A stretch of 54,517 bases of DNA, filler included, from Jimgerdemannia flammicorona (taxonomy: Eukaryota), in the NCBI GenBank assembly GCA_003990765.1. It is 3 parts of 3 records of this genome, joined end to end, with 100 filler letters (N's around TTAATTAATTAA, not from the genome) between each part and the next. Parts side by side here need not be neighbours in the genome. Positions count along the whole stretch, not along the records: positions 1 to 18,109 come from RBNJ01002302.1; 2 more parts are not named here. One strand, given 5' to 3'. Position 1 is the first letter of the stretch. Each line of letters opens with the position of its first letter. Below, piece by piece: positions 1 through 41,600 of the stretch. The notes beneath the pieces are model-generated. The model saw nothing but the letters and a program-made list of their open reading frames with translations. It searched no databases and had not been told where the DNA came from. Made by a program: the position numbers and the translations under genes.

Positions 1-2310
1 CCCCATCTCTTCTCAATGAAAGACCACTTTGTCTAACACTATCTCCATCTGCCCACCACTCTGTTCACAGATCCCTTCCACCAAGCAGTGACATTGTCCA
101 CCCTGGAGACCTCAGCCAATCTACCACCCAGTCAGCAGATCTTCCAACAACCCCTCCTACTTTAATAACTTCTTTTGCATATCTAACTGTTGCCCTTCCT
201 CAAAAACCAAAAGCCAATATCCAGCCAACCCTACCCACACTGCTATAATCCACCCTACAGTAAGCCACCCATTGCTGACACCTCCTACTAATTAAGATTT
301 CAAATTCTTCCAGTGACCTCTCACTCTATCTGGCCTCCTCTCCACACCCAGTTAGACCCCTATAACTATCCAAAAATCTCCCAAAACCTCACACTCTCTC
401 AGCCAATGTTCTGGCATTTGCACAAATTCCCCAGCTTGTCCTATATTATAACACTCCTCACAATCTAAGTGGCTACCATCCATCAGATGTCCAGCATGAA
501 AATTCAGCATAATATTCCTCTACAACATCTACCACCATACTACTCAGAACTTGGGAGGAAGCCACCTCTACATCTCAGCACTCTAAGACCAGATTCCTAC
601 CCAATCCCACTCCTCACAAATCCTCACTACCTGCCAACTACTTAGCCAAAGATCCTGGCCAAGTCCTCACTGATACTTCATACTATCACCAAAATCAAAA
701 TCAATAAGTGGAGTCCCCCCCAGAAGCAATCGGTCTCATTGCCACATAGCTGAGCCCTACATCATCTCTCTCTCATTATCTTACCAGCACAGACCTATCC
801 AGTGTACTCCATTCACCACCCCCTACCAGAAGCCCTTATACCTTAGTTGTTAGCTTCCATTTAGACCCACCAGAGAGAGTAAATTTCCTGAGAACCCCCA
901 AGGGGAGAATCTCATCTCCCACACCTTCTGCATCAGTGGTACCCAATCTCCTCCCTGCAGTTCAACAGCCCTTCTCAATCACCAAGCTTACAAGCAGTAT
1001 AGTTGCTTAGAGAAATCCACCAGGCTCAGTCCTCTCCTAATCACCAGTATTGCAAGGGTATCCCAACTGATCTGGGACCTCCTTCCTGCCCAAATCCAAT
1101 CTCTAGCCAGTTTCATCAGCCTCTTTACCACCCAGGCCAGAAAGTCTAAGTGATAAGCTACATACCACAGCTTGGAGAACCAGTAGACATTCAGAATTGA
1201 CACCTGCCTCTCCAGGGAGATGTGACAACTCCCCCAACTTCTAAGAGCCTCCCCCCAAATGGCCATCCTCCTCTCCCACCATACTTACAATAAAACAGAT
1301 CCATATACAGAAAGGAAGATTTCCAGGTACTATACCATCTCTCCTATAGAGACAATTGTTCCAATGATGTCCCCTCCTACCAGCCCATTCCCCAACACCA
1401 TTGTCTCACACTTATGCTAGTTGAGTCTTGTCCCAGAGTACATCTCATACCATTCTACTGTTTCCTTAAGTGCCTCTATGTCTACCACTGATCTAAGTCC
1501 AACTACCATATCATCTACAAAGGCCCCCACCTTCCACACCATACCATACATAGAGAGCTCTGCTACTCTCTGATATATTCTATCTATCAAAAGTTCCAAT
1601 AAAAGGGCATAAAGGATAGGAGACAGCAGGTCTCCTTGTGGAACTCTTTTTCCCAATAGAAATGCCAAACTCCTGTGACCATTACACATCAGCACTGCCC
1701 TACTACTCTCTAATAAATCCAACATAGAGGCCTAAAACCATAGCAGAACACCAATTCTGTCCAGTACCTTGCCCAGCCATATCTGCCAAACACAGTCATA
1801 GGCCTTCTCCTGGTCCAAAAAGACTAGCCTACTATCCAATCTGCAAGCCCAGGCTCCCTCAATAATGCTGTGCACCCAGGCAGTCTCATCCCTTATAAGC
1901 CTGCCTCCTACAAAACCCTGTTACTCCTCACCCAGCACCTGTTGAGCAACTTTCTGTAGCCTTGCAATAACCATCTTAGTCACCAACTTTCTGTTCATAT
2001 CCAGAAGCATGATCAGCCTCCAGTTCTTTGAGTCCTCCCACCTCCTCTTGTCTTTATACAATAAGGCCACCAGCTCTAAGTTCTGCTCTCTAATCCACTT
2101 GCTATCTAGAATAACTTGATTACAGAGAGAAGCTATCTCTCCTATCACTCCAGAAATCTTTACCATCTTCTTCCAAAAGTCCCAAGGTAGCCCATTCTCA
2201 TCAGGTGCTGTCCCAAGCTTAGTTGCTGCTAGGACTCACTAGATCTCCTCCTCTTGGATTGATAAGATCAAGTCATCAAGCCCCTCTACTTACAGCAGCT
2301 CCCACTCCTC
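1..2310 (-). mobile_element. Degenerate L1-clade non-LTR retrotransposon (LINE) ORF2, copy A, 5'-truncated in RT; its 3' end lies beyond the window start
   Basis: Minus-strand RT motifs WRLIMLLDMNRKLV, VPQGDLLSPILY and GAFVDDMVV, plus post-RT SKLWY...WIW. The C-terminal CCHC finger CEECYNIG...PEHWLREC..GDFW lies near 330-470. Many stops are of the TGG->TAG/TGA and CAA->TAA type. Confidence 0.9.
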
Positions 2311-3275
2311 TTTTTTTTTTTTTTTTTTTATAGTCTCTTGGACTGCCCTTTATTACTGCCATCTATAATTCTAACAATACAATGTCACCCCAAACCCTCA
2401 ACCAATGCTCTGTGGACCCAACCCTCTCACCTTGATCTCCCACTGTCTGAGCACAACTCACTCACCCACTATCCAAATTCGCCCACCACTTTTCTGAGAG
2501 ATACACTGTATGAAACCCCTGTGATTCCCCCCACCCTGCCCCCACCCTCGCCACTAGCTATTCAAAATGTCCAATAATAACCATTCCCAATATGCTACCT
2601 TGTCCCCAACTCCAACCTGCTGTCCCTCCTCAAATACATGAACCCAATGCCCAGCCAATCCAACCCATATGGCCAGAGCCCAACCAAGGGTCAGCTATTC
2701 ATCCCCAACCCCACTCACCAGTCTCTAGTAGAGCTCTCCCCATCTCCCCCCTTCCCCTCTCTCCAAGGTACACAGCTCTAACCAGTCTATGATACATCTT
2801 CAAAACTCCTCCAAAACCTTGTACTTGCCAAGCCAATGTTTAGATGTTTGCACCACTCCTCCCTCCTGACCAAAGTTGAAACACTTCTCGCAATCAAATA
2901 CTCCACCATCCACCAAGTGCCCAGACTGATAGTTCAATATCACTTCCACTGAAGAACTCACCACCACACCATCCTGAACTTGGGGGGCAGCCACTTCCTC
3001 ACCTGTTTGCTTCAAAGCCAAAGTCCATTCCAATCCCACTCCTCACCAATTCCAACTCTCTGCCAGGCTTTAGGCCACAGGTCGCCACCCAAGTCCAGCA
3101 GACACTCCATACCATTGCCAAGCTAAAAATCCTCCACTGGAACACCACTCAGTAGAAGCCTGTCTCACTGCTACATCTGCAGTCCCCAATCCTTCTTGGC
3201 TTCCTCACCTTGCCACCAAAGTCCAATTTTCTTAGTGCCATCCACCACCCCCTACCAGAAGCCCATAAACTGCAT
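2311..3275 (-). mobile_element. 5'-truncated 3' end of a related L1-clade LINE (copy B) with poly(A) tail
   Basis: Poly-T at 2311-2329 and AATAAA on the minus strand at 2349-2354. CCHC relic CEKCF...QTSKHWLGK(Y<-C)KVLEEF. 2970-3270 aligns by eye with 545-840 of copy A. Confidence 0.85.
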
Positions 3276-4699
3276 CCTTCTGCTCCCATTCATGGCCACC
3301 ATTACAAGCAGGTCACCAGAGTCAGTACCAACAGGAGACCAGTACAGAGATTTGCAGCAGCCACAGAAGAATGCAATATTATATACTTCATATATAGAGA
3401 AGAAGGCCACTATACAAAGAGTTGTATAACCAAAACAAGATAACTAGAGAACAAACCAATACAGTAGTCATCAAGGAGATTGGTGATACTGATGATGAAG
3501 AATACTATGATGAGCTTAAATTCTACTCCACTATTGAAGGTACCAGAACCTGGTCCAAGCCCTATGATAGGAAGAGCAACAGCAAACCAGTTGGAAGACC
3601 AAAGAAGACCCCAGCTATCACTATTCAAAGCAAGACCCAACCTGAGGAGATTGATCAAGACATGGAGATAGATGAAGTTGTCTGCCAAATTATTGAAGAC
3701 ACCACTCCAGTCTCAGGAGAAAGCAAAAGCAAGAAGAAACATAAGCTGTGCAAGACCAAGATCCACCAGTATGATATTTATAAGGATCTTAAAGAGCAGA
3801 AGGTCAATGCTACTTTTGGACAACTAGCTAAAGTCTCTGCCTTCAGACAGCTGTTGAGGGTAGGACTTGCAACTACTGCCAAGAATCAAGAGTACAAGAT
3901 TGTAGAAGCTCACAATGCACAAGAGGAATCTGAGAACTCAGGTGAAGAATCCAAAGACCAGCACAAGACATCAGCCTATACTCTATACCAGATTGAAGAC
4001 TGTATCTTTGATACCATCATTGATACTGGTACTGAAGGATGCCTCATGAGCAAAAAGGCAATTGACTGCTTAGGCTGGGATATTGAAGAGTCCACTAAGA
4101 TGGTCTATGTTACAGCAGATGGTACATGAGCTACACTCCTTGGCAAAATCTGAGAAGTCCCTATCAAGATAGGAGGAGCTATCATCCTAGTAGATGAGAT
4201 TGTCACAAGCACCACCAACTATGACATCCTCATTGGCAACCAATGGCTTCACAAGGCCAAGGCCATTATTGACCTCAATGCCCAGAAGATGCAGATAAAC
4301 TATAGAGGAAGAAAGGTATAAGTCTCTATCAATGTCCACAAAGGAGTCCTATCAGACATAGAGGAAGGAGATGAAGAGAACACAGAGGTCTTCATGCACT
4401 CAGTGAACAAGAACAAGAACAAGAACCAGAACAAGATACTCAAGCTTACAGATGAGCAGTGGTACAACAAGATCATCAATGGCTATGCCCCTCAAGGAAG
4501 ATGCCCCCATGATACTAGAATATACTGCTCTAAACACCTGAATGACTGCTGGTCCTGTATCAATGAAGTCAGGAAAATCCACCAACAGAAACATGAGCAA
4601 GAAGCTGCCAAAGCAAAAAGGAAAGCTGAAGAAGATGACCAGCCCCCAGAGCTTCAGGCTGACAGTGATGATGAGGAGGAATAAGAATTAGACATCACC

Positions 4700-5110
4700 C
4701 TTAAGGTCAAGAAGTTTCACTCCAAAGCCAAGATCCCAGAATACAAGACTGAAGAAGTTATAGGAATAGATCTTGCCAGCATTCAAGATACTACTTTTGA
4801 ACTACAGACCACCACCCTACTTGGCACTGGAATTGGAGTCAAGCTGCCAGAGAACCATGCCAGAATTATCAAGACCAGGAGCAGTCTGGCCAAAAGCAAA
4901 ATCTCAGTTGAAGGAGGAGTAATTGACTCTAATTACACTGGTGAGATCTTCCTCATAGTCAGAAATCACAATCCCACCACTCTATTCAAAGTCAAGAAGT
5001 ATGACAGAATTGGCCAGATACTGATCCATAAAATCAAGAAGCCCAAGATCATAGAAGCCATCGAACTCATCAAGACTAAGAGAGAAGAACAAGGCTTTGG
5101 ATTTACAGGA
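4700..5110 (+). pseudogene. dUTPase domain within the pol of gypsy 1 (between protease and RT)
   Basis: All five trimeric dUTPase motifs are in frame with PR and RT: GIDL, RSSLA, GVIDSNYTGEI, DRIGQI and REEQGFGFTG. Confidence 0.93.
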
Positions 5111-6623
5111 AGAGGAGCCTATGCTGCCACTAAGATTACCAAACTTGAGCACAAGAAAGACAAGGACCAGAATAAGCATACATATACCATTAGAGAAAAC
5201 TTTCCCCTAGAGGAACAACTTCTCAAGATCCTGCACCTGAACAAAGGAGTACTTGCTATAGACTTTAGAGATATCCACAATCAAGAACCCAAGTACTACT
5301 ATGAAGTTGATACTGGTGATACCAAGCATATCTACCAGAAAGCCAGATCTATACCACCTGCCTACAGAGAATGGCTGCAAGCAGATCTCAAGGAAATGGA
5401 AGAAGCTGGAATTATCAAACAAGCTATCAGCCCCTGGGCCTCACCCATTGTTCTTGCCCTAAAGAAAGGAAGTAAGTCTGGAGAGTTTTCACCAAGACTC
5501 TACATTGACTATAGGAAGCTCAATGCCATCATCAAGAAGGATAGGCAGCCCTTGCCAAATATTCAAAAAATCCTTACCACCCTTGGAAGTGAAGCCAAAT
5601 ACTACACCATCTTGGATCTGTTCTCAGGCTTCCATCAGATTGGTCTCACTTAAGATACCAGTGAGAAATCAGCCTTCATCACACCTGATGCCACCTATAT
5701 CTATCTGTAAATGCCATTTGGAATATATAATGCCCCAGCAAGTTTCTAGCGAATGATGAACAGAGTCTTCAGCAATGAGATTGGAAAATAGCTCTTTGTC
5801 TATATTGATGATGTGATCATCTTCAGCAATACTATATAGAAATATATCAATCACATACAGCTAGCCCTCAAGAAGCTCAAGGAGCATGGCCTCTACATCA
5901 AACCCAAGAAATACAAGTTTATAGCTCAGGAAATCACCTACCTAGGATACCTCATCAATCAGACCAGAATCTATACAGATCCTATGAAGATCGAGACTGT
6001 TGCAGCCTACCCAAGACCCAGAACAACCACAGAAGTCCATGCCTTCCTTGGACTGGTCAGCTACTATAGAAGATTCATCAAAGAATATTCCAATATTACA
6101 GTACCTATCTATGAGCTACTGAAGAAGGAAACCAAATTTGAATGGACCAAAGAGTACCAAGAAACCTTTAATGAACTCAAGACCAGATTGACCCAAGCAC
6201 CTATCCTCAAAAGACCAGACTGGAACCTAGAATTCATTCTGCAGACAGATGCAAGTACTATAGGACTTGGAGCAGTCCTAACTTAGAAGAAAGATGGACA
6301 TGAATATGTCATCTCCTATGCAAGCTGAGGTACCTGTAGAGCAGAACAGAACTACAAGTCAAGCAAGCTTGAATGCTTAGCAGTAGTTTGGGCAGTAGAT
6401 AAGTTCCACTACTACCTAGCCAGAAAATACTTCACTATTCAAACAGACCATTCCACCCTTGCCTGACTATTCCACACCCTGAACCCCAAAGGAATATATG
6501 TCAGATAGATCTACAAACTGCAAGAGTATGACTGCACTGTCAAGCACTGCTCAGGAAGAACCAACACCAAAGCTGATGCACTATCAAGGATACCCTGAAA
6601 CATCCCCATCAAGACTATTCAAT

Positions 6624-7829
6624 ATGAATAAGAAGCTATACTATAGGTTAACCAGCTACCTTGGGTAATGGAAGATGTCCAACCACCTTGAACCCTGGAT
6701 AATCACTATCATCAACCAGACTTGAAAACAGTTTGAACTAGATAACACTATACTCAGAAAAGGAGAAAAGCTAGTAATACCTGAACACAAGAAGTATCAA
6801 GTAATGAAGGAAGTATATGAGCAAGGACACCTAGGAGGAATCAACACATACAACAAGGCAAAAAGAACCATGTAGTAGCCCAAGATGGAAGAAGACCTGC
6901 ACCAATTTGTCAAAGGGTGTGACAAGAGGCAAAAACAGAAACAAGATCAGCAAGACCAAGTATCTAAGTCATTAAGAATTGAGCCTATCTCCTTCCACTA
7001 CATCACAATAGATATTATTGGACCACTACTAGTAACACTATCAGAAAACTGCTATATTATAGTTATTGTAGACCTCTTCACCAAATGGATAGAGGCAGAA
7101 GCATTACAAGAAGCCAATGCCCTCTCTATAGCTGACTTCCTGCACTGAGAAATCATCTGCCACTACAAGACACCAAAGCAAATCACAACAGACTGTAGCA
7201 TAGAATTTATCAATGGATTCCATAAGATAATATATCAGAAATACAAGATTCAGCACATCAAGACCACTGTGTACCACCCTCAAGGAAATAGACAAACAGA
7301 GAGAACCAACAAGACCCTCAAGAATATTCTAGTAAAGATCTCAGAGACATATGAGAATTGGGATAACTATCTCCCAACTGCCCTCTCTGTCCTATGAGAC
7401 ATATGGTCATAGAGCACACACTTTATCCCAAGGGAGCTGCTCTTCAGAGAAGAAGATTCTGATGGAACCTCAGCCACAAATCTAGACCTAACTTGGAGAC
7501 AGGTTGATGCAGAAATCCAGAGACTACACTAAATCAGAAAGAAGGCTGAAGATTATATCACCAAGTCACAAGTGCTGACAAGAAAGAATATGGAAAAGAA
7601 TCACAAGGCTCTAAAACCTATCCAAATCAGAGAAAAGGTTCTATTGTATCAAAATAGAGTAGAAACCTCATGATCACAAAAACTGGAGCCCAAATGGGAA
7701 GGACCCTTCTATATGCAAGATATCAAGAGAACTACCTTCTGGCTTAGAAAAATCTCAGGGACCATACTACCTACCATGGTACATAAGAACAGACTCAAGA
7801 AGTACCACAAACCTATACAAGAGAAGTAA
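6624..7829 (+). pseudogene. Gypsy 1 integrase reading frame (HHCC relic, DDE core, GPF/Y), in a different frame from RT-RNase H
   Basis: One frame runs from ATG 6624 to TAA 7827-7829, with internal stops explicable by C->T/G->A transitions. It contains GHLG...VKGCDK, DIIGPL, IVDLFTKWIEA and KWEGPFY. Confidence 0.85.
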
Positions 7830-8184
7830 AATGTGATGACTGCCTGTGAGGTTCTAGTCCATGAATTATAACAGCATATTCTGTGACCAGCAGGCTATCT
7901 GTCTGGACCATTCTCTAAAGGATATGGTACTGGTAACTACTCATCTGTGAGACTTTTGAAGTCAGAGGAGTTCAAACCATCAACTGATTGATCAAGATCA
8001 GAATCAGGCCCTTACTCTATATGAAGGGAGCAACCCTTCACCATTACACCAAAATACAAAGGAAAGATGCTAGCCCATAAATACCACTTTTTGACCCCTT
8101 GCCAGAGATTATGGGAATAGCAAATTTTTTAGGACTGGACCAATGAATAAGGATGCTCAAGAAGATCCTTATTCAGGAGGAAGA

Positions 8185-9710
8185 TGTAATAGTGACCTCA
8201 GAATGATGACATCAGCACAAGAGACAGCCTTTTCTCACAAGTCACCAGATCAGAGCATAAGAAGATCATATGGCATATGAGATGAGTAATGATGACTAAC
8301 TGTGAGTCATTGTGACCATAGTATGGTATCTTGAGAAATATAAAAGAAGGATTAAGAAACTGTAGTAGCAGCAATCAACAAGACCCACTAATCCCAAAAT
8401 AGCCCAAAGACTTACTACAAATGAAATGCCTGCTGCTTGCCAAACCTCAAGGTCAAGAAACCACCAAGGCACCTCAGTTGAAGAAAGGATGTTCCAAGAC
8501 ATCAGAAGAGCTATGAGGACCCACTCAAGAAGGACTCCTAGTATCAACCTGGGTACTGGTGATCCTTATCATTATATCCTCTACTACTATGAAATGGAAA
8601 CAAGAATCACAATTGCTACTGAATGCCTCCAAATGTGATAGGAGTAAGAAATAGGAAACCTCCTCTACCGGGAGTTCCCACAGGCCAGCACTTAAGAGCT
8701 ACAAGATTCCACTCCTATGGATATATGCGAAATGAGGACAGCTAAGAAGATCCATCAGATCTTCAGACATATACTATGGTCGATCCCCAACTTGGAGTAT
8801 GTTAGAGTCTCAGATTTCAGAGATCAGTTATCCTGTCATATCAATGCACTGGAAGCCAGGGTGGCTACAGAAGCCCAGTCCACTATCACCCTCAATAGTG
8901 ATGAAGTAGAAGACTTCTGGCATCCCATCCTTTAGGACAACCCAGACCAATTTCTGCAAAGATTGATCTCAGTATTCCAAGGCCCAAGCATCCAGATTAG
9001 ACCTCTCCAAGACCCCACATTTGTCCCCTATTTTGTGGAAGAGAACCTCATAGACTGGAGAGCTCCAGATCTCCTTGTTCCCACCACTACTAAATATGAT
9101 GATATCATCAGTGATGACATCATCCCATGTGATCTACATGATCTTGACAAAACATTTGTAGATCTCATCTCCTTTGAAGATATCCTGACCTCTGATGACA
9201 AGGATGAAGCCCCCATGGTCTTGAACATTCTGCTCTAAGTCTCTTATTATACTGGATAATGCCAGCACCAGTATTCTGAGGTGACACAGAATTGTTCCAG
9301 TACTAGTATTTTGATATAATACTAAATAATACCAGTACCAGTATTCTGATGTGATACTGAATAATACCAGTATCCTGAACTTGTACAACCATCAGTGCTG
9401 ACTCTGGAACTTAGTAGTTTTAGTTATTGGAATTTATATTTAGCTTTATATCTTAGCAATCATTGAATTATATTTTGTATAAATTCTCCTCTTATTTCCT
9501 CTAAAATAAAGTGAGTTCTGGTTTTACTTACACACACTTCCTTATAAGCAATCTAAGAAATAACAAGATAGTTAAAGATAAGAAGTTTAAGGACTATAAG
9601 ACCTTGAGAAGGCACTCCAATAAGAGCTTGCTTATAACAAACTTGAGTTAGTCTAAGAGATATACCTTGAAGAGAATCTGGTATATTTGAAGGACTCAGT
9701 GACCACTACA
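8185..9710 (+). repeat. Putative 3' LTR of gypsy 1 (~1.53 kb)
   Basis: The polypurine tract AGGAGGAAGA (8175-8184) is directly followed by TGTAATAGTGAC. The end GTGACCACTACA (9699-9710) is its imperfect inverted repeat (TG...CA). AATAAA lies near 9505. The 5' LTR is not in the window, so this is unconfirmed. Confidence 0.65.
8426..9238 (+). pseudogene. ~270-codon accessory ORF of unknown function inside the putative LTR
   Basis: Track ORFs 8426-8638, 8717-8935 and 8963-9238 share one frame. The intervening stops are TGA/TAG/TAA, revertible to CGA/CAG/CAA. Confidence 0.7.
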
Positions 9711-9789
9711 TGACAGTATAGAGAAATCTAACAAGCTAAAGATCATTAAATTTGGATGTATTTTTGTCAAATTATTATATTTTAAAAAA

Positions 9790-12399: not shown

Positions 12400-12400
<1 letters not shown>

Positions 12401-12432
<32 letters not shown>

Positions 12433-13607
12433 GACTCAATGTTCTGCAGATTTTATTAGAAGAAAACCTAGACTATATAGACCAAAACCCTCCCTCACTA
12501 CCCACCAGACATTATTAATCTAGGCTACTAAATTGTCCTATAGTTTTATTATTTTAGCTATATATATCAGATATATCAACTCTCACTATAAAGACTAGAC
12601 TTGTCTATTTACTAGGGTTGGATTATTGTGACTATATATAAGACCACACCTATATATCAGTTCTAGCAATACTGGGACTGAATAAGGAATAGCCCCCTGA
12701 ACTCCAAATAAAGATCTGAGATAAAAAAACCCCCCAATAAGCTAACTGAAAATAGAATAGATTTAAAGTAAGTGAGTAAAGAACTTATATATAGAACTCT
12801 CTTAAAAGAACTGATATATGGGCTAAGGCTTGAAAAAGCCCCACTCCCACTCTTTGAGCCTGTGGGCCTTGATCATATTACTGTATCAGCTCTTAGTTCC
12901 AGTTAGATACTGCCAAATAAGGAAGAACCTACTCCTCAAGTCTGTGGGTCTTAATTGTATTACTGTTTTAGCTCTTGGTTCTAGTTAGATATGTATAGCC
13001 AGGATACCAGCTTCTATACTACCCTACTCTCTACCAGTCAATCAAAAGGCCTCACTGAGATAATACTCATACTAACCCCAATGACCACCCCCAGCCTTAT
13101 ACTCTACTAGTCTACTATTATCATCCTTCCACTTATTTGTAATGATCATCTCTCCTCCTATCCTGACTCTACCTGAAAGGCAGTCACCTACATTAGAACC
13201 ATGCTTGTTGAGAAGCTTACCAAAGCTCAGAGGGCTCTACTATAGCTACTGGAGACCTGTAGATAACCTATACTGACACTTGATACCCAAGGTTGGTCAA
13301 CTCTATATGTAGTCTATGATATACTAAGATAAAATCTTATTGATGATAGTAAAAGAAAGAAAGTACAATATCAAAATAAGTATATCCCAGATATAGCCAA
13401 AGGTACTAGAAACTATGAAAAATTAGAGAAGATACTGATCTGATACTAATAAAGAGGTAACTTATCACTATTACCTCCCTCCTACTGCCCTGCAATAGGT
13501 AAAGCAAACTAATTCAAGATAGAGAGGATACAAGTTGTAAAAAGTAGACTCAGAAGATAGTCTACCAAACCTTGTACCTAGGAAGATAGCAGAGAAACAG
13601 AACTCCT
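12401..13607 (-). mobile_element. Non-autonomous poly(A) retroposon (SINE/HAL1-like), copy 1, subfamily A, inserted in gypsy 2 gag
   Basis: Poly-T at 12401-12428 and minus-strand AATAAA about 22 nt inside. TSD AAGTCTAACAC(TTTT) at 12390-12400 and 13608-13622. Homologous to 34727-35983, 36444-37356 and 53324-54390. Confidence 0.9.
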
Positions 13608-18000: not shown

Positions 18001-18109
18001 GGGTTAGGGTTAGGGTTAGGGTTAGGGTTAGGGTTAGGGTTAGGGTTAGGGTTAGGGTTAGGGTTAGGGTTAGGGTTAGGGTTAGGGTTAGGGTTAGGGT
18101 TAGGGTTAG
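18001..18109 (+). repeat. Telomeric repeat (TTAGGG)n, about 18 units, at the right end of contig 1
   Basis: Perfect GGGTTA array running to the contig end, with the G-rich strand oriented 5'->3' toward the end. Confidence 0.95.
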
Positions 18110-27034: not shown

Positions 27035-27490
27035 GAATTATGGACTGACCTTTTGCGTTCGCTCGTTGGCGAATGAACGCGAATGAACCCTTTATGAATT
27101 TGGGGGGGTTTTTTTTTTTTTTCTTCTTTTTCTCCTCTTTTGTTAGAGCCAATTATGTAGATATATTAAGTGTTATTCTGTACATTGGTGACGTCTTTGG
27201 CATTGTTCATTTAACTCCCCCCATTGAACCATACCCGTTTGCCTGTTGGATATGAATGTAATCGAGTATATAATCGACTTGCGCTTAGGGTTCAAACGGC
27301 TCCCTGTTAAATCCCAACCATCTCATCACCACCGTTTATATCTTTTCACTTTTCATATCCTCGTTACACTTCCCAAAGCAAATAATTTTTATTGAGCGAA
27401 AAACAAGTCTCGACTCACAATCTCCCAACCCATATCCGTATCCAATGTCACTCTCCCGTTCAATTCGTCCCTCTCATTCTTTAGCTTCGC

Positions 27491-28956
27491 TCAGGGAGTC
27501 TCATCAATCCTGGCGACGAGCTTGACACCTGAGACCTTACCCGCGGCGAGCCTGGCGTGGCCCTCGGGGATGCCCGCGAGGCCGTTCGGCAGGACCTCAT
27601 AACGGTTAGGCCGGAGCACGCCGGCGGCAAGGAGCTCGCCGAGTTCTTCATAGAAGGAGACGCCGAATGAGTTGGCTTCCTCCCTGTGGCCGGGTTTGGT
27701 GAGGTAATGGGATGATGGGATGGTGTTAGATAAGTGCGACGCTCGAATACAACAAACTAACCACAAAAAAAAAAAAACATACCTATAAATCACGCCGGAT
27801 AACACATTGTGTACCTTAACTTTCGGATAACTTCCTGTGGGGGCGCCGGCGATAACGGCGAGGTGGGACTCATGTTCCTGATCGAGTGCCTGGGCGGCGA
27901 GATCGGCCGTGGCAGAGGAGATGGTGTCGTAAGCGTAGCGCAGGCGGCCACGCGTGATCTCGCGGATTTTGGTCACGGCCTCTGGGTCCGACCGGTCGAT
28001 CACCACGTCTGCGCCTAGTTCCTGCAGGTACGCGTGCTGGTGCGGGGACGCAGTCGTGATTACCGTGTAGCCAGAGAGTTTTGCTAACTGGATCGCATAA
28101 TTTCCTGTGCTGCTCGAGCCGCCCCAGATCTGTGAGGGGAGGGATGTTGTGTGAGTGGAGTAATGTATATAATATATATATTGTAGATATAAGGTTCGTA
28201 TACGTACGAGGAGGTATTCGGGGCGGAAGAAGGACTGATGCTCGCGCGGGCGGGGAAGCTTGAGAAGGTGGTAGAACGCGACGGCAGAGGTGAGCGTGCC
28301 CAAGCCAATGGTCGAGGCCTCCTCAAAGGAGAGGTTCGGGGGGATCTGTCGATCGAGGCGGAACGGGTTACAAAATGCCAACCATAATCTGCAGCGCTAT
28401 TTGTGATATGCGAGGTACGGAAAGACAGTACCTTGGCTGATAGGTTTTCGACGAGCAACGAGTACTCAGCGTAGGTGCCGTAGTTAAGTGAGCCGACCTG
28501 TGATGGTTGGGAATTAGCCTTTTGCTTTTGCTTTTTTTTTTTTTTTTCCCGTTCAAAAGTTTCGTGCAAGATGACAATGCCAAAGACAAACGACAAGTAC
28601 CCCGGCGAACGCGAACACTTTATCTCCTGGCTTGAGATTCTTCACATCGGGGCCCACAGCCTCGACGACACCCGCGGTGTCAGCACCGACGACGAATGGC
28701 CACTGGGGCACGGCGAAGTTGTATTTGATCTAGGGGCGACGATCACGACTGTGAGCCGCCAGTTTCACACCTAACCCAGTATCACCAACACAAATCCAAG
28801 GGAGCCGAATCCCTCTCTCACCTGCTTCCAGTCGACGGGGTTTAGCGCAACGACCTTGTTCTTGACGAGGATCTCGTTGCCCTTGGGCACGGGCTTCTCC
28901 CACTCGCCGATCTGGAGCTCGCCGCCGGCCTTATGCGCGATGAGGGCCTTGACCAT
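27491..28956 (-). CDS. MDR-family NAD(P)H oxidoreductase (enoyl-reductase-like, ToxD/YLR460C-type), copy 1
   Basis: VALNPVDWK, VGADTAGVV, IWGGSSSTGNYAIQLA and GKVSGVKLV motifs. Five GT-AG introns splice to an open frame. Confidence 0.92.
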
Positions 28957-30151: not shown

Positions 30152-30356
30152 TATAATAAATCTAGTATAACATAGATATATTGCACTAAGCTGGGGCATC
30201 TCAAATCCAAAAGATCTTTGCAAATAATTTGTTGAACCAAACAAATCTTGACTCGCACAGCTTCCCAACCCATATAATATTTGTATCTGTATCCAATGTT
30301 CTTCTCTCGCTCAAGCCTCTTGTTCCTCCCACCCTGCCTCAATTCTTTAGTTTTGC

Positions 30357-31075
30357 TCAGGGAGTCTCATCAGTCCTGGCGGCGAGCTTGACACCTGAGA
30401 CTTTTCCCGCAGCGAGCTTGGCGTGGCCCTCAGGGATGCCCGCGAGGCCGTTCATAACGGTTAGGCCGGAACACGCCGGCGACAAGGAACTCGCCGAGTT
30501 CTTCATAGAAGGAGACGCTGAATGAATTGGCTTCCTCCCTGCGGCCGGTTGTTTAGTAAGGTGATAGGATGATTGGATAAGTGCGACTCTCGAATATAAA
30601 GTTTTTTTTTTTTCATTTTTTTTTTTTTTTTTAGTAAAAAAAATTCCTTAGCCATTTTTTCTTTTATTTTTTTTTTTTCATTTTTTTTTTTTTTTTCAGT
30701 AATACAAATTCCTAAGCCATTTATACATTAATATATTTTTATTGGTAATATACAACAACAACAACAACAACAAAAATACTCATAAATCACGCCGGATGAC
30801 ACATTGTGCACCTTAGCTTTCGGATAACTCCCTGTGGGGCCGCCGGCGATAATAACGAGGTGGGACTCATGTTCCTGATCGAGTGCCTGGACGGCGAGAT
30901 CGGCCGTAGCGGAGACGGTATCGTAGGCGTAGCGCAGGCGATCTCGCGGATCTTGGTCACGGCCTCCGGGTCCGACACCACGTCTATGCAGGTATATACG
31001 CGTGATGGTGCGGGGACGCCGTCGTGATTACGGTGTAGCCGAAGAGTTTGGCTAACTGAATGGCATAGCTTCCCT
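30357..31075 (-). pseudogene. Truncated pseudogene copy of the MDR oxidoreductase
   Basis: Only the 3' half is present. There is an 11-nt deletion near 30453 (GGCAGGACCTC missing) and further deletions, and the 5' exons are lost. Confidence 0.9.
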
Positions 31076-32370
31076 GGCGGTCTCTTCTTTTCGCAAGCGG
31101 AATGAAATCGGTTACAAAATGTCAAGATTAGATTAGAAATTAAAAACCCTATATCTCGTCCAAGAACGTCAGGGATTTGAACATACTTCATATTTCAGAC
31201 AACAAAGATATAATTTGGCTACTGATAAAATATTTCAAATATAATCAGTTAAATATATTCTTGATCTTTGCTGTTAACATCAGAACAGGTTTATTATATT
31301 TTTAGTAGCTTATATATTATTGTAGCCAAGTATTACTTAATTATATATTATAAAGGAAATAAAAAAGAATATAATAAAGTATAAATATAACAGTTTTATT
31401 TTTATTTCTCAAATCTAAACATATCCATCAATTTATTATCTCATTTATAGTATTATTATAGTAATAAACTTTAACAATAATAATGATAATAAAATTAAAT
31501 ACATTATTTTAAATATAAAATTTATTATAATAGTTGATTTTTAATTTAAACTAAACAATTAAAAACAATATATTGATTATTTTATTTTAAACTATATTTA
31601 GAAGTATAAAAATTCAATTTATAATAATAGAATATAAATATTAAATATAATAAATTTGTTAAAATTATAAAAATACTTACTAAAATATAAAGTTATTAAA
31701 TTATTTATTATAATAAAATTTAATTTAATTAATCAACTATAACTTTAAGTTTCTATTAAATATATAGCTATTTATACTAATATAAAACTTAATTATACTT
31801 TTTATTTATAAATAATTAATATAAAAAAATAATAAGATTTTTTTTATTTATTTATAAAAAACTTACAATTTTATAAAATTTAATTGTAAATATAATCCTT
31901 ATAGTTAAATTTATTTAATAAAAAATAGTATTATAAATATTTTAGTAAACTATTTGAAAATAAATATCAATATCAATATAAAGTTATATAATAATAATAT
32001 TATTATTATTAGTAATAGTAGTATTAAATATTAAATTATTTATTTATTTATCTATTATTATTTAACATTTATACTTTATTATAATTATATTAGTAATTTA
32101 ATAATATTATATAATTTACTATTACATATAATTTAAAGTTTATAATAAATCTCTTAACAGTAGGGTTAAGTTTCTCTTTTTTTAAAAATATATATAAGCT
32201 CAATATTCTGATGATGAAGCTAAGCCAAGGTTTCATGTTCCATTTTAAATCCAAAACAATTTATTGAACTAGAAGCAAAGCTTGACTACAATATTTGTAT
32301 ACGTATCCAATGCCCCTCTCCCGCTCAAGCCTCTTGTCCCTCCCACCCTGCCTCAATCATTTAGCTTCGC

Positions 32371-33888
32371 TCAGGGAGTCTCCTCCACTCTGACGACGAG
32401 TTTGACACCCGAGACCTTGCCCGCGGCGAGCCTGGCGTGGCCCTCGGGGATTCCTGCGAGGCCGTTTGGCAGGACCTCATAACGGTTAGGTCGGAGCACG
32501 CCGGCGGTCAGGAGCTCGCCGAGTTCTTCGTAGAAGGAGATGCCGAATGAGTTACCTTCCTCCCTGCAGCCGGTTGTGATAGGATGATAGGGTGGTGTTA
32601 GATAAGGGCGACGCTCCAACACAGCAAACTAACCACATCAAAAAAAAAAAAGTCGCACTTATAAATCACGCCGGTGGACACACTGTGCACCTTAACTTTC
32701 GGGTAGCTCCCTGTGGGGGCGCCGGCGATAACGGCGAGGTGGGATTCACGTTCCTGGTCGAGTGCCTGGGCGGCGAGATCGGCCGTGGCAGAGGAGACGG
32801 TGTCGTAGGCGTAGCGCAGGCGGCCACGCGTGATCTCGCGGATTTTGGTCACGGCCTCTGGGTCCGACCTGTCAATCACCACGTCCGCGCCTAGTTCCTG
32901 CAGGTACGCGTGCTGGTGCGGGGACGCCGTCGTGATTACGGTGTAGCCGGAGAGTTTGGCTAGCTGGATCGCATAATTTCCTGTGCTGCTCGAGCCGCCC
33001 CAGATCTGTGAGGGGGGATAGGGATGTTGTGTGAGTGGAGTAATGTATATAATATATAATATATATTGTAGACATGAGGTTCGCATACGTACGAGGAAGT
33101 ATTCGGGACGGAAGAAGGACTGATGCTCGCGCGGGCGGGAAAGCTTGAACTCGTGGTAGAGCACGACGGCGGAGGTGAGCGTGCCCAAGCCAATGGTCGC
33201 GGCCTCCTCAAAGGAGAGGTTCGGGGGGATCTGTCGATCGAGGCGAGTGGGAAGGGGAGAGAAGGGGTTGCAAAATGTTAACCACAATCCGCAGCGCTCT
33301 ATGTGTGTTATGGAAAAGACAGTACCTTGGCAGATAGGTTGCCGACGAGCAACGAATACTCAGCGTAGGTGCCGTAGTTAGGCACGCCAATCTGTGACAT
33401 GGTTGGGAATTAGCTTTTTTTTCCCCGTTCAAAAGTTCTGTGCAAGATGACAATGCCAAAAACAAACGACAAGTACCTTGGCATACGAGAACACTCTATC
33501 TCCCGGCTTGAGGTTCTTCACATCGGGACCCACGGCCTCAACGACGCCCGCGGTGTCGGCGCCGACGACGAACGGCCACTGGGGCACGGCATAGTTGTAT
33601 TTGATCTAGGGGCGACGGCAACGTTAGGATCACGGCTGTGAGTAGCCAGTTTCACAGACAGACACTCGAGTGGGACCTTCCATCCCATCCCCACCTCCAA
33701 CAACCGTCTCGGCATCGCCAACACGAACCCAAGGGACCGAACCCCTGTCTCACCTGCTTCCAGTCGACAGGGTTTAGCGCGACGACCTTGTTCTTGATGA
33801 GGATCTCGTTGCCCTTGGGCACGGGCTTTTCCCACTCGCCGACCTGGAACTCGCCGCCGACCTTATGCGCGATGAGTGCCTTGACCAT
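32371..33888 (-). CDS. MDR-family NAD(P)H oxidoreductase, copy 2 (intact paralog)
   Basis: Same intron positions and motifs as 27491-28956, MVKALIAHK...VEETP*, with no frameshift seen. Confidence 0.9.
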
Positions 33889-34768: not shown

Positions 34769-34814
<46 letters not shown>

Positions 34815-35983
34815 GACTCAATGTCCCACAGATTTTTATTGGAAGGGAACCTAGACTATATAGGCCAAAACCCTCTCCCACCACCCATCAAGCACTGCCC
34901 CCCCATTAACCTAGGCTAGCTATTATCTAGCAGCTCAACTATACCAGATGCAGTAGGGCCTATGACAGTTCATACCTTATTCTATATACCATACTCTCCC
35001 TATCACTAGGGGAAACCCAGCCATATGCCAATGACTGAAAGCACATGCCCAAGAACCCAATGTATATACAAGGCTATGCCCAAGCCAAATAGAATAGCCT
35101 CTACCACCCCAAAGAGAATGACAGACAAAGAAAAACCCTTATCAAAGCATAATATGATAGGTAGGGCCTGGTTCTCCCAGTTGAGGTAAGTAAAGAACTT
35201 ACACATGAGATGGGAGGAGACCCCCAATACCCCACTACTCAAGCCTATGGGCCTTGATCACATTGCTATATCAGCTCCCAGTTTCAGTTGAGTGTAGCCA
35301 AGATGTCTGAAATAGTAGCCTCAGGCCCTCTGACCCCCTCTGATGACCAGGGCCTAATCCACCAATTTATCAAAAGAAGCTGAGAGTGTCACCTACTACC
35401 TAACCACACTGTACCAATCAAAAGGCCCCACCAAAGTAGCACCTGCCTCAGCCCTGATGACCACCCCCAGCCTGGCACCCTACTGGTCCACTATAATTAC
35501 TCTTCCTCCTATCTGTGATGGCCATCTCTCCTCCCATCCTGACAACACCTAAAAAACAGTCACCTATACCAGAACCGTGCTCGCCAGAAAGCTTGCCAAA
35601 GCCAGAGGGCCCCACCACAGGCACCAAATACCTGCAAGTAACCTATACTGAGTACTTGATGCCCAAGGTTGGCTGACTCCCTATGTAGCCTAAGACACAC
35701 CAAGACAGCACCTTGTTGGTGACAGCAAAAGAAAGAAGATACTGCACCAAAACAGATACACTCCAGACATAGCTGAAGGCACTAGAAACCATGAAAAAGT
35801 AGAGAAGACACTGATCCAACACTAATAAAGGAGCAACTCATCACCATTGCCTCTCTCTCACTACTCTGCAACAGATACAGCAAACCAACCCAAGGTAGAG
35901 GGGGTAATAATTGTGAAAAGTAGACTCGGAAGGTCATCTACCAAACCATTGTGACTGGTAAGGTAGCAGAGAAAGGGGCTGGT
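34727..35983 (-). mobile_element. Non-autonomous poly(A) retroposon, copy 2, subfamily B, apparently full length
   Basis: Long poly-T followed by AATAGACTCAATG and a minus-strand AATAAA. Colinear with the reverse complement of 53324-54390. A possible TSD TTCTAATATCT (34716-34726, 35990-36000) lies in repetitive flanks. Confidence 0.88.
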
Positions 35984-36131
35984 ATCTGCTTCTAATATCT
36001 CATCTTACTACTCATTTTAATACTATACTTTATTATACTTTCTAATATATTCTATTGCTCATTTTATTACTCTATAGAGCTTTTTTATTAATATTTAAAG
36101 AGTAGCTCTATTAGTGCTGATACTTTTATCT

Positions 36132-36133
<2 letters not shown>

Positions 36134-36204
<71 letters not shown>

Positions 36205-36290
36205 GATTCAGATTCCTGCATATTTTTATTTAAAGAGAACCTAGACTATATAGACCAAATTTCTCCCCCACCACCCATTAAGTACTGTTC
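36134..36290 (-). mobile_element. 3' fragment of the same retroposon (copy 3)
   Basis: Poly-T, then ATAGATTCAG...TTTTTATT...GAACCTAGACTATATAGACCAAA, as in copies 1 and 2. Confidence 0.85.
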
Positions 36291-36313
36291 TTTTTTTTTT
36301 TTTTGTTTTGCTA

Positions 36314-36413
36314 NNNNNNNNNNNNNNNNNNNNNNNNNNNNNNNNNNNNNNNNNNNNTTAATTAATTAANNNNNNNNNNNNNNNNNNNNNNNNNNNNNNN
36401 NNNNNNNNNNNNN
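36314..36413. other. Artificial contig linker
   Basis: N44 + TTAATTAATTAA + N44. Confidence 0.98.
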
Positions 36414-36443
<30 letters not shown>

Positions 36444-36445
<2 letters not shown>

Positions 36446-37356
36446 AATAGTCTCCCAAACTCCAAACAAAGGCCTAAGATAAAGAAAAACCCTCCAACTA
36501 GCCAATATAAAACAGAATAGATTCAGAGCAGATGAGTAAAGGACTTATATATAGAATCTTCTCAAAAAGACTAATATATAAACTAAGGCTTAAAAAAGTC
36601 CTACTCTTACTCTCTAAGTCTATAAGCCTTGATCATATTGCTATATCAGCTCCCAGTTCCAATCAGATATTGCCAAATGAGAGAGATCTCACTTCTCAAG
36701 TCTGCAGGCCTCAATTGTATTATTGTATCAGCCTTTGGTTCTAGTTAGATATAGTCAAGATATCAATTCCTATACTACTCCACCCTCTATCAGTCAATCA
36801 AAAGACCCTATCAAGATAACACCTACTCTAACCCTAATAATTACTCCAGCCTAACACCCTACTGATCTACCATTATCACTCTTCTACCTATTTATGATGA
36901 TCATCTCTCCTCCCATCCTAATACCACCCAAAAAGCAGTCACCTACACCAGAACTATACTTACCAGAAAGCTTATCAAAGCTCAGAGAACTTTACTACAA
37001 ATACTGAAAACCTGCAGATAACCTACACTGGTATTTAATACCCAAGGTTGGCTGACTTCATATGCAGCTAATAATATACTAGACAATACCATATTGATAA
37101 TGACAAAAGGAAGAAAGCATTGTATTAAAACAGATATACTCCAGATGCAGCTGAAGGCACCAGAATCCATGAAAGAGTAGAGAAGACACTGATCTGACAC
37201 TGATAAAGGGACAACTCATCACCATTGTCTCCCTCCCACCATGCCCTTGCAGACACAACAAACTAACCCAAGATAGAGGGGTAATAATAGAGGAAAAGAG
37301 ACTCAGAAGGTTGCCTACCAAACCTTGTGACCAGTAAGGTAGTGGAGAAAAGAGGA
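36444..37356 (-). mobile_element. Non-autonomous retroposon, copy 4, subfamily A; 3' part cut by the contig start
   Basis: Colinear with 12685-13607, including the internal ~80-bp tandem duplication. Confidence 0.88.
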
Positions 37357-38655: not shown

Positions 38656-41600
38656 TTAGAATTCCGTGACCATGATGCCCTTGGTGTCGCAGCCGTATAT
38701 CTACAGGGGAAGGATATATCTCGGTCAATGCAAGGAGTTGATATTCGCAATCCTTAGCGCCAACTGTTCATGACTTACCGAGATGTAAGAATCGCCTGCC
38801 CCTGCTGCAATAAGCATTGCGTGCGGATGGAACGCGAGCGAATGAATCTTGCCTACCCTCTGACTAAGAAAACCTGTTGACGGACGAAGTGTTGAAAGGC
38901 TGGTTCCTGACACGTTCCATATTTTAATGAACTGATTCTCGCTTCCACTGTATTGTTATCACCAAAGCCCGGTTCAGGTTAGGATGTTAGTAAAGAACAT
39001 ACATTATGCCATTATTTGCTACATTAACCATATATCCATCAGTTCACACACCTTGCAATAACAGGTGCATGATCATGCACTGCCAGGGTTGTCATCTCCG
39101 AGCCTCCGTGAGCTTCAACTGTTTGTAGGGAGTGTGACATCCTAATATCCCAGGACTTGATTTCGCCTTCCCCACTGTTACGGGTTTGGCATTGAAATAT
39201 GAAAGAATTAACGAGTAGAGAGTATAAATAAGCGTGATTAAATCATAAACCGAGATCGACAGTTGATTAAATTCAAGGTTAGAAAATAAGCAACCGCACC
39301 TTCCAGATATTAGCTCTCTATTGCCACCGCGCTGCATGTGAACATTGACTACCCATGCCCTATGCTCTTTATATTGCATCACCATTCTAATCAAGAAAGA
39401 GAATCGAAAGTTCGTGATGAGAGGTTCCACTGTGTGCATGGTGAAGGACGAGGTGTGCGAATTTTGGGGACAAAGCATGAAATGAGGACCTACGCTTCTC
39501 GAACTGCCTTCCTTCTATCATATACGCGGACAGCGCCGTCCCCAAATCCTGCCACAAATATATTGCCTGCAACCTGGTCACTGGTGATGCTTGTCACGCA
39601 ACTGCCAGATCGTGTCAGTACGTCCTAAAGCATGGACAAAAACGCCATTTTTTTTTTTTTTTTTTTTTTTTGTGGATGTGTTAATAGCCGACAATTACCA
39701 CCAAGTAGGCATGGATATCATAATAATGTGTTTAAACAATTCAGCATACCGCATAACAAGTCTCTTTCGCCGCGTCCCATACTCTGATTACTCGCACATC
39801 TCCACCGATCAACAATGTGCCTCGGCCTTGCTGCCAGTCGCACACAAGACCACTACGCCGAATGCTTGGCACTAAGTCCGTCAGTGCACGCCATGCTGTT
39901 ACCAAATCAGCACCTTCGGGATTATCATAGTTTCTGTATAATCGCACAGCGCCATCATCTAAACAACCCAAAGATCCGTACGCGATACAATGTCAGAACC
40001 CGACATATACTGAGCCTCGAAAATTACACAATTCCATATAATACTTGCCTGATCCCGTCAACAGCATAGCCACATCCTCCTCATTAACAAATTTCAGTGA
40101 CGTGATTCGACTACGTGGCGGATTCCCGTTTCCAAAAAAGTTCAATCGTGTACCTTCTTGCCAATTCCATACACTATAAATGTCGATAGTATTGCAAAAC
40201 AATAATTAGAGCGGTAATATGTCGAAAACAGTTCCGATCCACTTATTTTGAGGATAACGGAAAATCAAGGAGAAAACGCGTGCCGGAGATCTGCAAGCCA
40301 GTGCGTGAAACCCTCTAGCCTCTTTCCCCCCTCTACCTACGTAATTGACCGTTCATCATCCGCCGTCACCAGATGTGGCTCAAATTGATGAAAAAGTAAG
40401 TGCGTTGTGTCCGTGCCACCATGTAACATCATGATTTGCTCATCCCATCGGCTCTTGCCTGTATTAACCGATGTAGTTGTCAGTAGAATCCTTATGTGAT
40501 CGGAAACCGTCTTTACAAACATCATTAGCACGGACTCAAATGATCCATACGCATTTATAATGGATAAATACTATATGCCAGTGATCTTAATCATGACTCA
40601 CCAGCATACTCTCTCAAAGCCTGTGTATCGTATACTATTTTTTCATTTCGAATCCTTCGCCAAAGTCGCTCATTATAATTCACGCTACCAGGTTCTTCGG
40701 ATTCGGCAGGCTGCAATTTTTCAAATAAAGGCATCATGTAAGAGTGCCGATAAAAGAATTCAGAGATTGTCATTCCTAATAAACGGTCATCTTGGTACCA
40801 GTAACCCTTTCCGACACAAGAACTTACCCGCATCTGCGGCTCCGTGAAAAACTCGCAGCTCCAATCATAGAAGCCAGATTTTAGTGGTAATATACCTTCC
40901 TCCTCTTTGTTTGCTCCGTTTTGCTGAAAATCTTCATCTTTAAGGGCCAGCGGAATAGCATCCGTCAATGATGCGGAAGAGTTATTATTGGCAGTTGTTC
41001 GAGGCTGGTTCAGTCCGGGTACAGTTACAGTTGTTGGCGCAGGCGGAAGACTGGCTGGAACACGGTCAGCTCCTGAAGACTGGTATCCCGTCATGTTGCC
41101 GTTGTTCATGACGGAACCCACTGTGCTGTTTATTTCTGTCGTACTGTTAGATCCGCTGCTGAGATTATACAAGGTCCGCAAAGTGCGAGTGAAAGTCGCA
41201 GACCGAGTTAATTTCGCAGTCTTCTTTGCCTCTGCAGTGGCACGATCTTCAGAACCGTGGAATGAGGGCGATCGATCCAATGCAGATGGATGTGAATTAA
41301 GTCTTCCACTTGAAGCTTGGCCAGTTGGTTGCGGGAGGTGTAGAACGGAGGATACTGCATCTCCCATGTGCGGAGAATTAATGAGGGAATTATTGACGTG
41401 ATCCACGACCACTCTGGCTAGGTTCGCAACCTCACTGTGCGGATCCACGGAAAGGTTAAGTAGCGCCTTCCAGATACAACTGTAGACAGTGGCGTTGGAG
41501 TTGGAACGGAAGATACCATCGGAAACATTCGGGCGGCGATCTGAAGATCGACCACGACTCAACTTACGCTCATCCCACGTTGTGACTGACCGTTGGCGAT

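What the first reader, a model, noticed from the sequence alone, without database searches (positions are those of the whole stretch)
8175..9710. A ~270-codon ORF inside the putative 1.5-kb LTR of a gypsy element
Seen: a PPT followed by TG at 8185, a matching inverted end at 9710, and three co-framed ORF pieces (8426-9238) whose stops all revert by single T->C changes to one protein (...ILYYYEMETRI...MRTAKKIHQIF...VRVSDF...). Known: LTR-encoded proteins exist in retroviruses (MMTV sag, and nef overlapping U3) but are not a standard feature of fungal Ty3/gypsy elements. Inference: this is an accessory gene that would be copied into both LTRs and left behind in solo LTRs, seeding a host gene family. 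It could be an anti-silencing or trans-acting factor.
Basis: partly seen in the sequence, partly recalled or inferred. Interest (0 to 1): 0.75.

Follow-up and report, generated by a model that had tools for sequence, protein, structure and literature searches.

The report
Protein gene inside fungal retrotransposon LTRs
A very common jumping gene in this fungal genome carries a real protein-coding gene of unknown family, apparently with its own promoter, wholly inside its long terminal repeat, a layout known from mouse mammary tumour virus; this copy is dead and the protein's job is only inferred.

Summary
Confirmed, with one correction. 8185-9715 (not 9710) is the 3' LTR of a high-copy, dUTPase-bearing Ty3/gypsy family: paired LTRs in four intact elements, 4-nt target duplications, solo LTRs and a tRNA-Thr(UGU) primer site. 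8426-9238 is a real gene, dead in this copy (5 stops). Across 37 copies its frame has no fixed stop, 11 of 14 shared indels keep the frame (1 of 17 outside), and dN/dS is 0.32 against 0.56 for shuffles. A conserved TATA box lies 87 nt before its ATG; the element's usual TATA/AATAAA block follows the gene, so each LTR looks like a self-contained cassette. Homologues (30-60% identity) occur in three more gypsy families of this genome: inside the LTR in two, just before the polypurine tract in the third. No Pfam, PDB or fold match. Basic N-terminus, helical core and acidic tail best fit a self-activating transcription regulator like foamy-virus Tas (inferred, 0.4). A host gene family is not supported. 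The scan found this gene before on other pieces of this genome, including the internal form.

The parts
3324..7829 (+). 5'-truncated, decayed gag-PR-dUTPase-RT-RH-IN of the element (family A)
   Evidence: 88-89% match to intact elements from 3324 on; dUTPase, RVT_1, RT_RNaseH_2 by Pfam; domain order
7830..8174 (+). non-coding spacer between integrase stop and PPT
   Evidence: no frame stands out in dN/dS; not alignable to the spacer shared by families B, C, D
8175..8184 (+). polypurine tract
   Evidence: sequence; precedes 22 of 37 copies
8185..9715 (+). 3' LTR, 1531 nt, TGTAA...TGACA
   Evidence: 37 full-length copies, four LTR pairs, 4-nt duplications, PBS 3 nt behind the 5' copies
8207..8214 (+). 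CRE-like octamer (decayed form); motif name recalled, function untested
   Evidence: 34 of 37 copies at this place
8339..8346 (+). TATA box of the accessory gene (P1), inferred
   Evidence: ATATAAAAGA in 36 of 37 copies, top 2% of non-coding 8-mers; TATA-like box at a fixed distance in families B, C, D
8426..9238 (+). accessory gene, 270 codons, broken in this copy by stops at 8636, 8639, 8645, 8693, 8933
   Evidence: stop-free natural copies; homologues
9245..9372 (+). 35-nt tandem array, variable copy number
   Evidence: TRF; 24 arrays of period 35 among 33 copies; 35/70-nt indels
9478..9484 (+). TATA box of the genomic RNA (P2), inferred
   Evidence: TATA-AATAAA-YAGT block at fixed spacing in 31 of 37 A, 8 of 9 C, 13 of 17 D copies, seen in B
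9505..9510 (+). poly(A) signal AATAAA, just before the inferred start of R

Best explanation
A real accessory gene of a fungal Ty3/gypsy group sits wholly in U3. Shown: LTR limits, coding constraint, copying into both LTRs and solo LTRs, homologues in four families. Inferred from motifs: each LTR holds two promoters; P1 (8339) makes a short mRNA for the gene that ends at the LTR's own poly(A) signal, P2 (9478) starts the genomic RNA, and because AATAAA lies just before the P2 start the genomic RNA is not cut short. Inferred from anatomy: the protein (basic N-terminus, helical core, 60-125-residue acidic tail, no membrane segment) is a nuclear regulator that switches on the element's own promoters, working like foamy-virus Tas with its internal promoter. 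Selection acted while the elements were replicating; inserted copies, this one included, then decayed by C/G deamination. The gene's existence and position are near certain (about 0.97), the own-promoter cassette likely (about 0.75); the confidence given is for the transactivator mechanism.
For: Frame, indel and dN/dS tests: dN/dS 0.32 in 42 DNA-found copies against 0.56 (lowest 0.44 of 25) for shuffled columns, like integrase 0.36 and RT 0.28; C 0.30, D 0.25. P1 box: 36 of 37 A copies, 19 of 19 B, 21 of 21 C at -68 to -73, 14 of 14 D at -62, although the surrounding U3 does not align between most families. In C the gene lies outside the LTR yet keeps a TATA box of the same sequence as the LTR's. 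Net charge +1 to +8 in the first 45 residues, -13 to -27 in the tail, FxxL(I/L) in 4 of 6 tails, highest 19-residue hydropathy 1.07. Mainly helical core model, pLDDT 60. Tas: internal promoter, DNA-binding part, acidic C-terminal activation domain (PMC7390438, passages).
Against: No known DNA-binding fold or family was found. No transcript or start site is shown. No shared motif upstream of P1 and P2 in three single-copy comparisons. Family B shows no dN/dS signal (0.51 against 0.48; heavily decayed copies). Acidic tails with aromatic-hydrophobic motifs also bind trafficking or autophagy factors (own knowledge). Among AT-rich 8-mers, 5% are as conserved as P1 and 11% as P2.
Confidence: 0.4

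Rival explanations
1. Sequence-specific anti-silencing factor that works like VANC: binds the element's non-coding DNA and removes or blocks DNA methylation rather than recruiting polymerase.
For: Elements are under strong methylation-type decay (CpG observed/expected 0.03-0.08 against about 1 in host genes; 4421 transitions to 598 transversions). Family-specific tandem arrays follow the gene in 31 of 33 A and 13 of 17 D copies; VANC targets form tandem repeats (PMC5735166, abstract).
Against: No array in 12 B copies (230 nt scanned) and only 2 of 13 C copies; no similarity to any Pfam family; the copies examined are heavily deaminated inside the LTR too.
Confidence: 0.2
2. RNA-export or RNA-fate factor that works like Rev, Rem or Cer1 CERV, binding a response element near the 3' end.
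For: Arg-rich N-terminus; a 240-320-nt non-coding element just upstream is shared by B, C and D at 73-84% identity although their pol differs widely; precedent in an LTR retrotransposon (PMC10309623, abstract).
Against: The shared element has no folding signal (z 0.1 to -1.3 in 7 copies) and family A lacks it; a long acidic tail is not typical of Rev-type proteins (own knowledge).
Confidence: 0.15
3. Particle, nuclear-import or integration-targeting helper that acts after translation, the acidic tail binding a host adaptor.
For: Conserved W, H, P, D residues in the core and a conserved C-terminal P-x-x-L-N-F motif in A, B and C; such roles are proposed for plant additional ORFs (PMC7264820).
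Against: The gene pairs with very different gag-pol and with 4-nt and 5-nt duplicating integrases, which is hard for a tight Gag or integrase partner.
Confidence: 0.12
4. The solo-LTR copies have become a host gene family under host selection.
For: 5 of 10 solo against 9 of 53 paired LTRs are stop-free (p 0.035); MMTV keeps sag intact in dead proviruses (PMC3026287, passage).
Against: Sample biased by a protein search; 0 of 5 DNA-found solos open, mean stops 2.6 against 3.0 and 3.4; openness tracks CpG retention; no relative from NCBI or UniRef sources among the hits.
Confidence: 0.06
5. Not a gene: a chance open frame in an LTR.
For: No family match; the window copy and all 37 DNA-found copies have at least one stop.
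Against: Indel, stop and dN/dS tests; protein conserved at 30-60% between families whose flanking DNA does not align.
Confidence: 0.01

Closest known systems
MMTV sag (superantigen ORF in the LTR)
   Same: A whole accessory ORF makes the LTR long (about 1.3 kb there, 1.5 kb here); MMTV also has dUTPase (PMC3026287, passages).
   Different: sag mRNAs come from the 5' LTR or a promoter in env and use a splice acceptor before the ORF (same paper); here a TATA box lies inside U3 before the ORF. No sequence match, no membrane segment, fungal Ty3/gypsy host element.
Foamy-virus Tas (Bel-1) with its internal promoter
   Same: Second promoter for a roughly 300-residue protein with a central core and an acidic C-terminal part (PMC7390438, passages). 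Family C even has the internal layout.
   Different: No detectable homology; in A, B, D gene and promoter are in the LTR and so duplicated; activity not shown. A working analogy, not membership.
Additional ORFs of LTR retrotransposons (plant aORF-3S/3R, Grande gene23, Retand TRP28, Boty; rotifer ORF3; rice Retrosat2 ORF0)
   Same: Family-wide extra gene of unknown function, sometimes with its own promoter, nuclear, or shared between distant elements (PMC7264820 main text; PMC11963269 abstract; PMC5408684 and PMC3485330 passages).
   Different: Those are described in the internal region; here three of four families hold the gene inside the LTR, in sense, without a membrane segment, from an unrelated protein family.
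dUTPase-bearing fungal Ty3/gypsy elements (PosPlaTy3-5 type)
   Same: dUTPase between PR and RT (PMC2864245, passages). That paper's figure legend also names an additional ORF of unknown function.
   Different: The figure and supplements were not seen, so the position of that ORF is unknown to me; no relationship tested.
VANC anti-silencing proteins of VANDAL transposons
   Same: Element-encoded protein beside fast-changing tandem repeats in a methylating host (PMC5735166, abstract).
   Different: DNA transposon of plants; no homology; arrays missing or rare in families B and C.

Membership tests
Ty3/gypsy LTR retrotransposon | Order PR-RT-RH-IN after gag | tested here: met
   (dUTPase inserted between PR and RT)
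Ty3/gypsy LTR retrotransposon | Paired direct LTRs with TG...CA ends and target duplication | tested here: met
   four intact elements, 3 of 4 with 4-nt duplication; 5 solo LTRs
Ty3/gypsy LTR retrotransposon | PBS complementary to a host tRNA and PPT before the 3' LTR | tested here: met
   PBS is the complement of the 3' end of tRNA-Thr(UGU), L206:1450-1521; PPT
Sense additional ORF between pol and 3' LTR (aORF-3S) | Lies in the internal region, before the PPT | tested here: not met
   window family A: ORF starts 241 nt inside the LTR; met only by homologue family C
Sense additional ORF between pol and 3' LTR (aORF-3S) | Present in most copies and conserved like gag-pol | tested here: met
env-like ORF | Transmembrane segment | tested here: not met
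   highest 19-residue hydropathy 0.39-1.07 in 6 proteins
MMTV sag | ORF contained in the LTR | tested here: met
MMTV sag | Detectable sequence homology to the superantigen | tested here: not met
   no such Pfam family among 51 members scanned at E up to 1
Foamy-virus Tas | Own promoter separate from the genomic promoter | tested here: inconclusive
   conserved TATA box only; no start site mapped
Foamy-virus Tas | Acidic C-terminal activation domain | tested here: inconclusive
   acidic tail present; activity not testable
Foamy-virus Tas | Binds LTR DNA and activates it | not testable with these tools
   needs an assay
Foamy-virus Tas | Homology or shared fold | tested here: inconclusive
   no Pfam hit; fold model of moderate confidence only
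VANC | Tandem-repeat targets in the element's non-coding DNA | tested here: inconclusive
   arrays in A and D, not in B, rare in C
VANC | Sequence-specific loss of DNA methylation | not testable with these tools
   needs methylome data

The most novel reading that the evidence does not exclude
A fungal gypsy group has evolved complex-retrovirus-style regulation: a portable module (own promoter plus a regulator of a new protein family) that is exchanged between families with very different pol, can sit on either side of the polypurine tract, and when inside U3 turns every LTR, solo LTRs included, into a self-contained gene able to activate or de-silence relatives in trans.
Probability: 0.35. 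Interest if true: 0.8.

Novelty: new variant of a known kind. Interest (0 to 1): 0.6.

Why it matters
LTRs of retrotransposons are treated as non-coding and neutral; they are used to date insertions and are masked in annotation. Here over half of the LTR is a selected gene, probably with its own promoter, in a family of the order of a thousand elements (952 exact LTR-PBS junctions). It gives a new protein family to test as a retrotransposon-encoded regulator in a host that deaminates its repeats heavily, and a natural series (inside versus just outside the LTR) showing how an LTR boundary can move around a gene, as must have happened for retroviral LTR ORFs.

Tried and rejected
Family and structure searches: Pfam 0 hits for the window protein and only scattered weak hits for 51 members (best Apo-CIII, 12 members, E 0.004); PDB sequences 0; ESM Atlas nothing at 0.9 or above; first fold model pLDDT 36, unusable; second model pLDDT 60 gave no Foldseek hit at E 0.001 in PDB or BFVD and best Z 4.6, which shows neither a new fold nor absence, and residues beyond 131 were barely tested. 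Homodimer prediction: no verdict. Longer or fused forms of 600-2000 residues: none, weak evidence. JGI metagenome contigs: no locus confirmed among 600 pattern matches. Expression: no RNA holder listed; of 4 runs laid two are only guessed to be RNA, and although X6 covers mostly the LTR its contigs run past both P1 and the poly(A) signal, so I drew nothing from it. Second ORF in the 7830-8174 spacer: rejected, no frame stands out. Structured RNA in the B/C/D spacer: no folding signal. Shared binding motif before P1 and P2: none. Relic of an old LTR start upstream of the family C gene: not significant (z 0.4-2.1), so the direction of the boundary shift is open. Formal incongruence: integrase tree rejects A+B (p-AU 0.025) but the ORF tree does not reject B+D (0.135). 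A first comparison of stop rates in ORF and pol was dropped because arginine codons made the denominator unfair. Literature: ten searches (listings only) gave no report of an ORF inside the LTR of a fungal retrotransposon; most subscription papers are not in that library.

Full report
Observation. The stretch follows a decayed gag-PR-dUTPase-RT-RH-IN region. A PPT (8175-8184) is followed by TG at 8185. A DNA search of the window's own genome scored 40 of 4378 candidates, and nearly all matched the whole 1.5 kb and stopped at the same two places. Among the loci fetched, 37 distinct full-length copies (1467-1622 nt) end in TGACA or a deaminated form, which puts the right end at 9715, not 9710: 21 follow a PPT, 10 precede a PBS, 1 has both and 5 are solo with a 4-nt duplication. 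Four intact elements have LTR pairs 89-92% identical, almost all differences being transitions, and 3 of the 4 have a 4-nt duplication. The PBS is the complement of the 3' end of a host tRNA-Thr(UGU) gene. Contigs of an unrelated-looking soil run also break off at 9715 into the PBS. The LTR-PBS junction occurs exactly 952 times in the genome, which may include sister families. The window copy lacks its 5' LTR, being cut at 3324.

The gene is real. 8426-9238 is one frame of 270 codons with 5 stops. That each stop differs from a sense codon by one T/C change is true of any stop and proves nothing. Across the 37 copies the frame has 118 stops in 9846 codons and no site where half the copies stop, against 8-25 such sites in each other frame; the final TAA is in 37 of 37 and the ATG in 30 of 37. 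Of indels shared by two or more copies, 11 of 14 in the ORF are multiples of three against 1 of 17 outside (p 9e-5); two of the three exceptions look like a compensating pair. Third positions vary most (0.071, 0.057, 0.100; permutation p 0.0006). dN/dS is 0.32 in 42 DNA-found rows against 0.56 for shuffled columns (lowest 0.44 of 25), comparable with integrase (0.36) and RT (0.28). None of the 37 DNA-found copies is fully open, but protein searches find open ones: 24 of 87 cores are stop-free, and these keep more CpG (median 7 against 1). So selection acted during replication and inserted copies decay.

Promoter anatomy. ATATAAAAGA lies 87 nt before the ATG in 36 of 37 copies. After the gene and a 35-nt array comes a TATA, AATAAA, YAGT block at fixed spacing in 31 of 37 copies. 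I read the second as the usual U3/R border and the first as the gene's own promoter; both are motif readings, no start site was seen, and AT-rich motifs resist deamination, which inflates their conservation (5% and 11% of AT-rich 8-mers do as well).

Relatives. Public protein searches gave 6, 5 and 11 hits, all unnamed or 'hypothetical', from ENA or JGI contigs of at most 4.8 kb; none carried an NCBI or UniRef source. Used as queries, they revealed three more families in this genome. Family B (about 55-60% identity): 19 of 19 copies start at one point about 280 nt before the ATG, 3 after a PPT, with a TATA-like box at 210-213. Family D (about 30%): LTR start 216 nt before the ATG, PPT in front in L162, TATTTAAR at -62 in 14 of 14. 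Paired LTRs were not seen for B or D. Family C (41-45%): the gene lies after the integrase with TATAAATA at -68 to -73 in 21 of 21, and its stop abuts the PPT in 15 of 17; paired 800-nt LTRs in L167-L169 exclude it. A, C and D have dUTPase before RT, seen once for B. The ORF tree groups A with B and the integrase tree B with D; integrase B-D 63-70% and A-B about 30%, the reverse of the ORF. The integrase data reject A+B (p-AU 0.025), the ORF data do not reject B+D (0.135), so exchange of the module is likely but not proven. L179 was left out of that test as a long branch. B, C and D also share a non-coding element upstream (z 44-56). The direction of the boundary shift is open.

Protein. No family, structure or fold match was found. 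The better model (pLDDT 60, pTM 0.48) has a long helix, a helical core and a short beta hairpin. Six representatives have a basic start, an acidic tail (net -13 to -27) and no membrane segment. With a second promoter, this anatomy parallels foamy-virus Tas, which is made from an internal promoter and has an acidic C-terminal activation domain (PMC7390438, passages). I give the transactivator reading 0.4, anti-silencing 0.2, RNA export 0.15, a particle or targeting role 0.12. The host-gene-family idea gets 0.06: 0 of 5 DNA-found solos are open and 79 of 84 hits with enough flank lie in an LTR, against one biased signal for solos.

Comparison. MMTV has a long LTR because it encodes sag, expressed from spliced RNAs (PMC3026287, passages). 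Additional ORFs of retrotransposons are described in the internal region (PMC7264820, parts 1-2 of 3 with the whole main text; PMC5408684 and PMC3485330, passages; PMC11963269, abstract). A fungal survey names dUTPase between PR and RT and an additional ORF in a figure legend; the figure and supplements were not seen and may bear on novelty (PMC2864245, passages). PMC10787394 (passages) treats a variable fungal U3 without mention of an ORF in the passages seen. PMC10309623 and PMC5735166 were seen as abstracts. Ten searches found no report of an ORF within a fungal retrotransposon LTR.

Earlier scan notes describe the same gene many times in other pieces of this genome, including the internal form and the Tas analogy; they were read after my own tests of boundaries, selection and family C, and are not independent evidence. 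Verdict: real, an unusual layout and an uncharacterised protein family; new variant of a known kind (accessory ORF of LTR elements in a sag-like position); interest 0.6.

Noticed in passing
L206:1450-1521 (G000:C5115): Host tRNA-Thr(UGU) gene whose 3' end is the exact complement of the family A primer site; L205 is an element whose leader extends the match further into the tRNA.
   Followed up: partly
L168:4983-8899: Family C deletion derivative with both 800-nt LTRs and a 5-nt duplication that lost most of gag-pol but kept the accessory gene.
   Followed up: partly
L115, L127, L162: 240-320 nt upstream of the PPT or of the gene's promoter: Non-coding element shared at 73-84% identity by families B, C and D whose integrases are only 22-70% alike; no folding signal; function unexplained.
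   Followed up: partly
window 1-3323: Decayed minus-strand LINE pieces with almost no CpG; one abuts and truncates the gypsy element at 3324.
   Followed up: partly
window 18001-18109: Telomere-type TTAGGG array at the end of contig C2302; the rest of the window lies off this contig.
   Followed up: no
window 12400-13570, 34780-37300, 53361-54334: Another dispersed repeat with poly(T) ends, four copies at 76-87% identity.
   Followed up: no
window 27400-28400, 30270-31190, 32290-33360: Three tandem copies of a zinc-type dehydrogenase-like gene (name from recall), the middle one decayed.
   Followed up: no
window 40591-43758 (-): Long Raptor/KOG1 exon (Pfam Raptor_N) with normal CpG content, unlike the repeats.
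   Followed up: no
L004, L017, L021, L028, L040: Family A LTRs often lie next to or inside one another, including a tandem LTR with PPT before and PBS after (L021).
   Followed up: no
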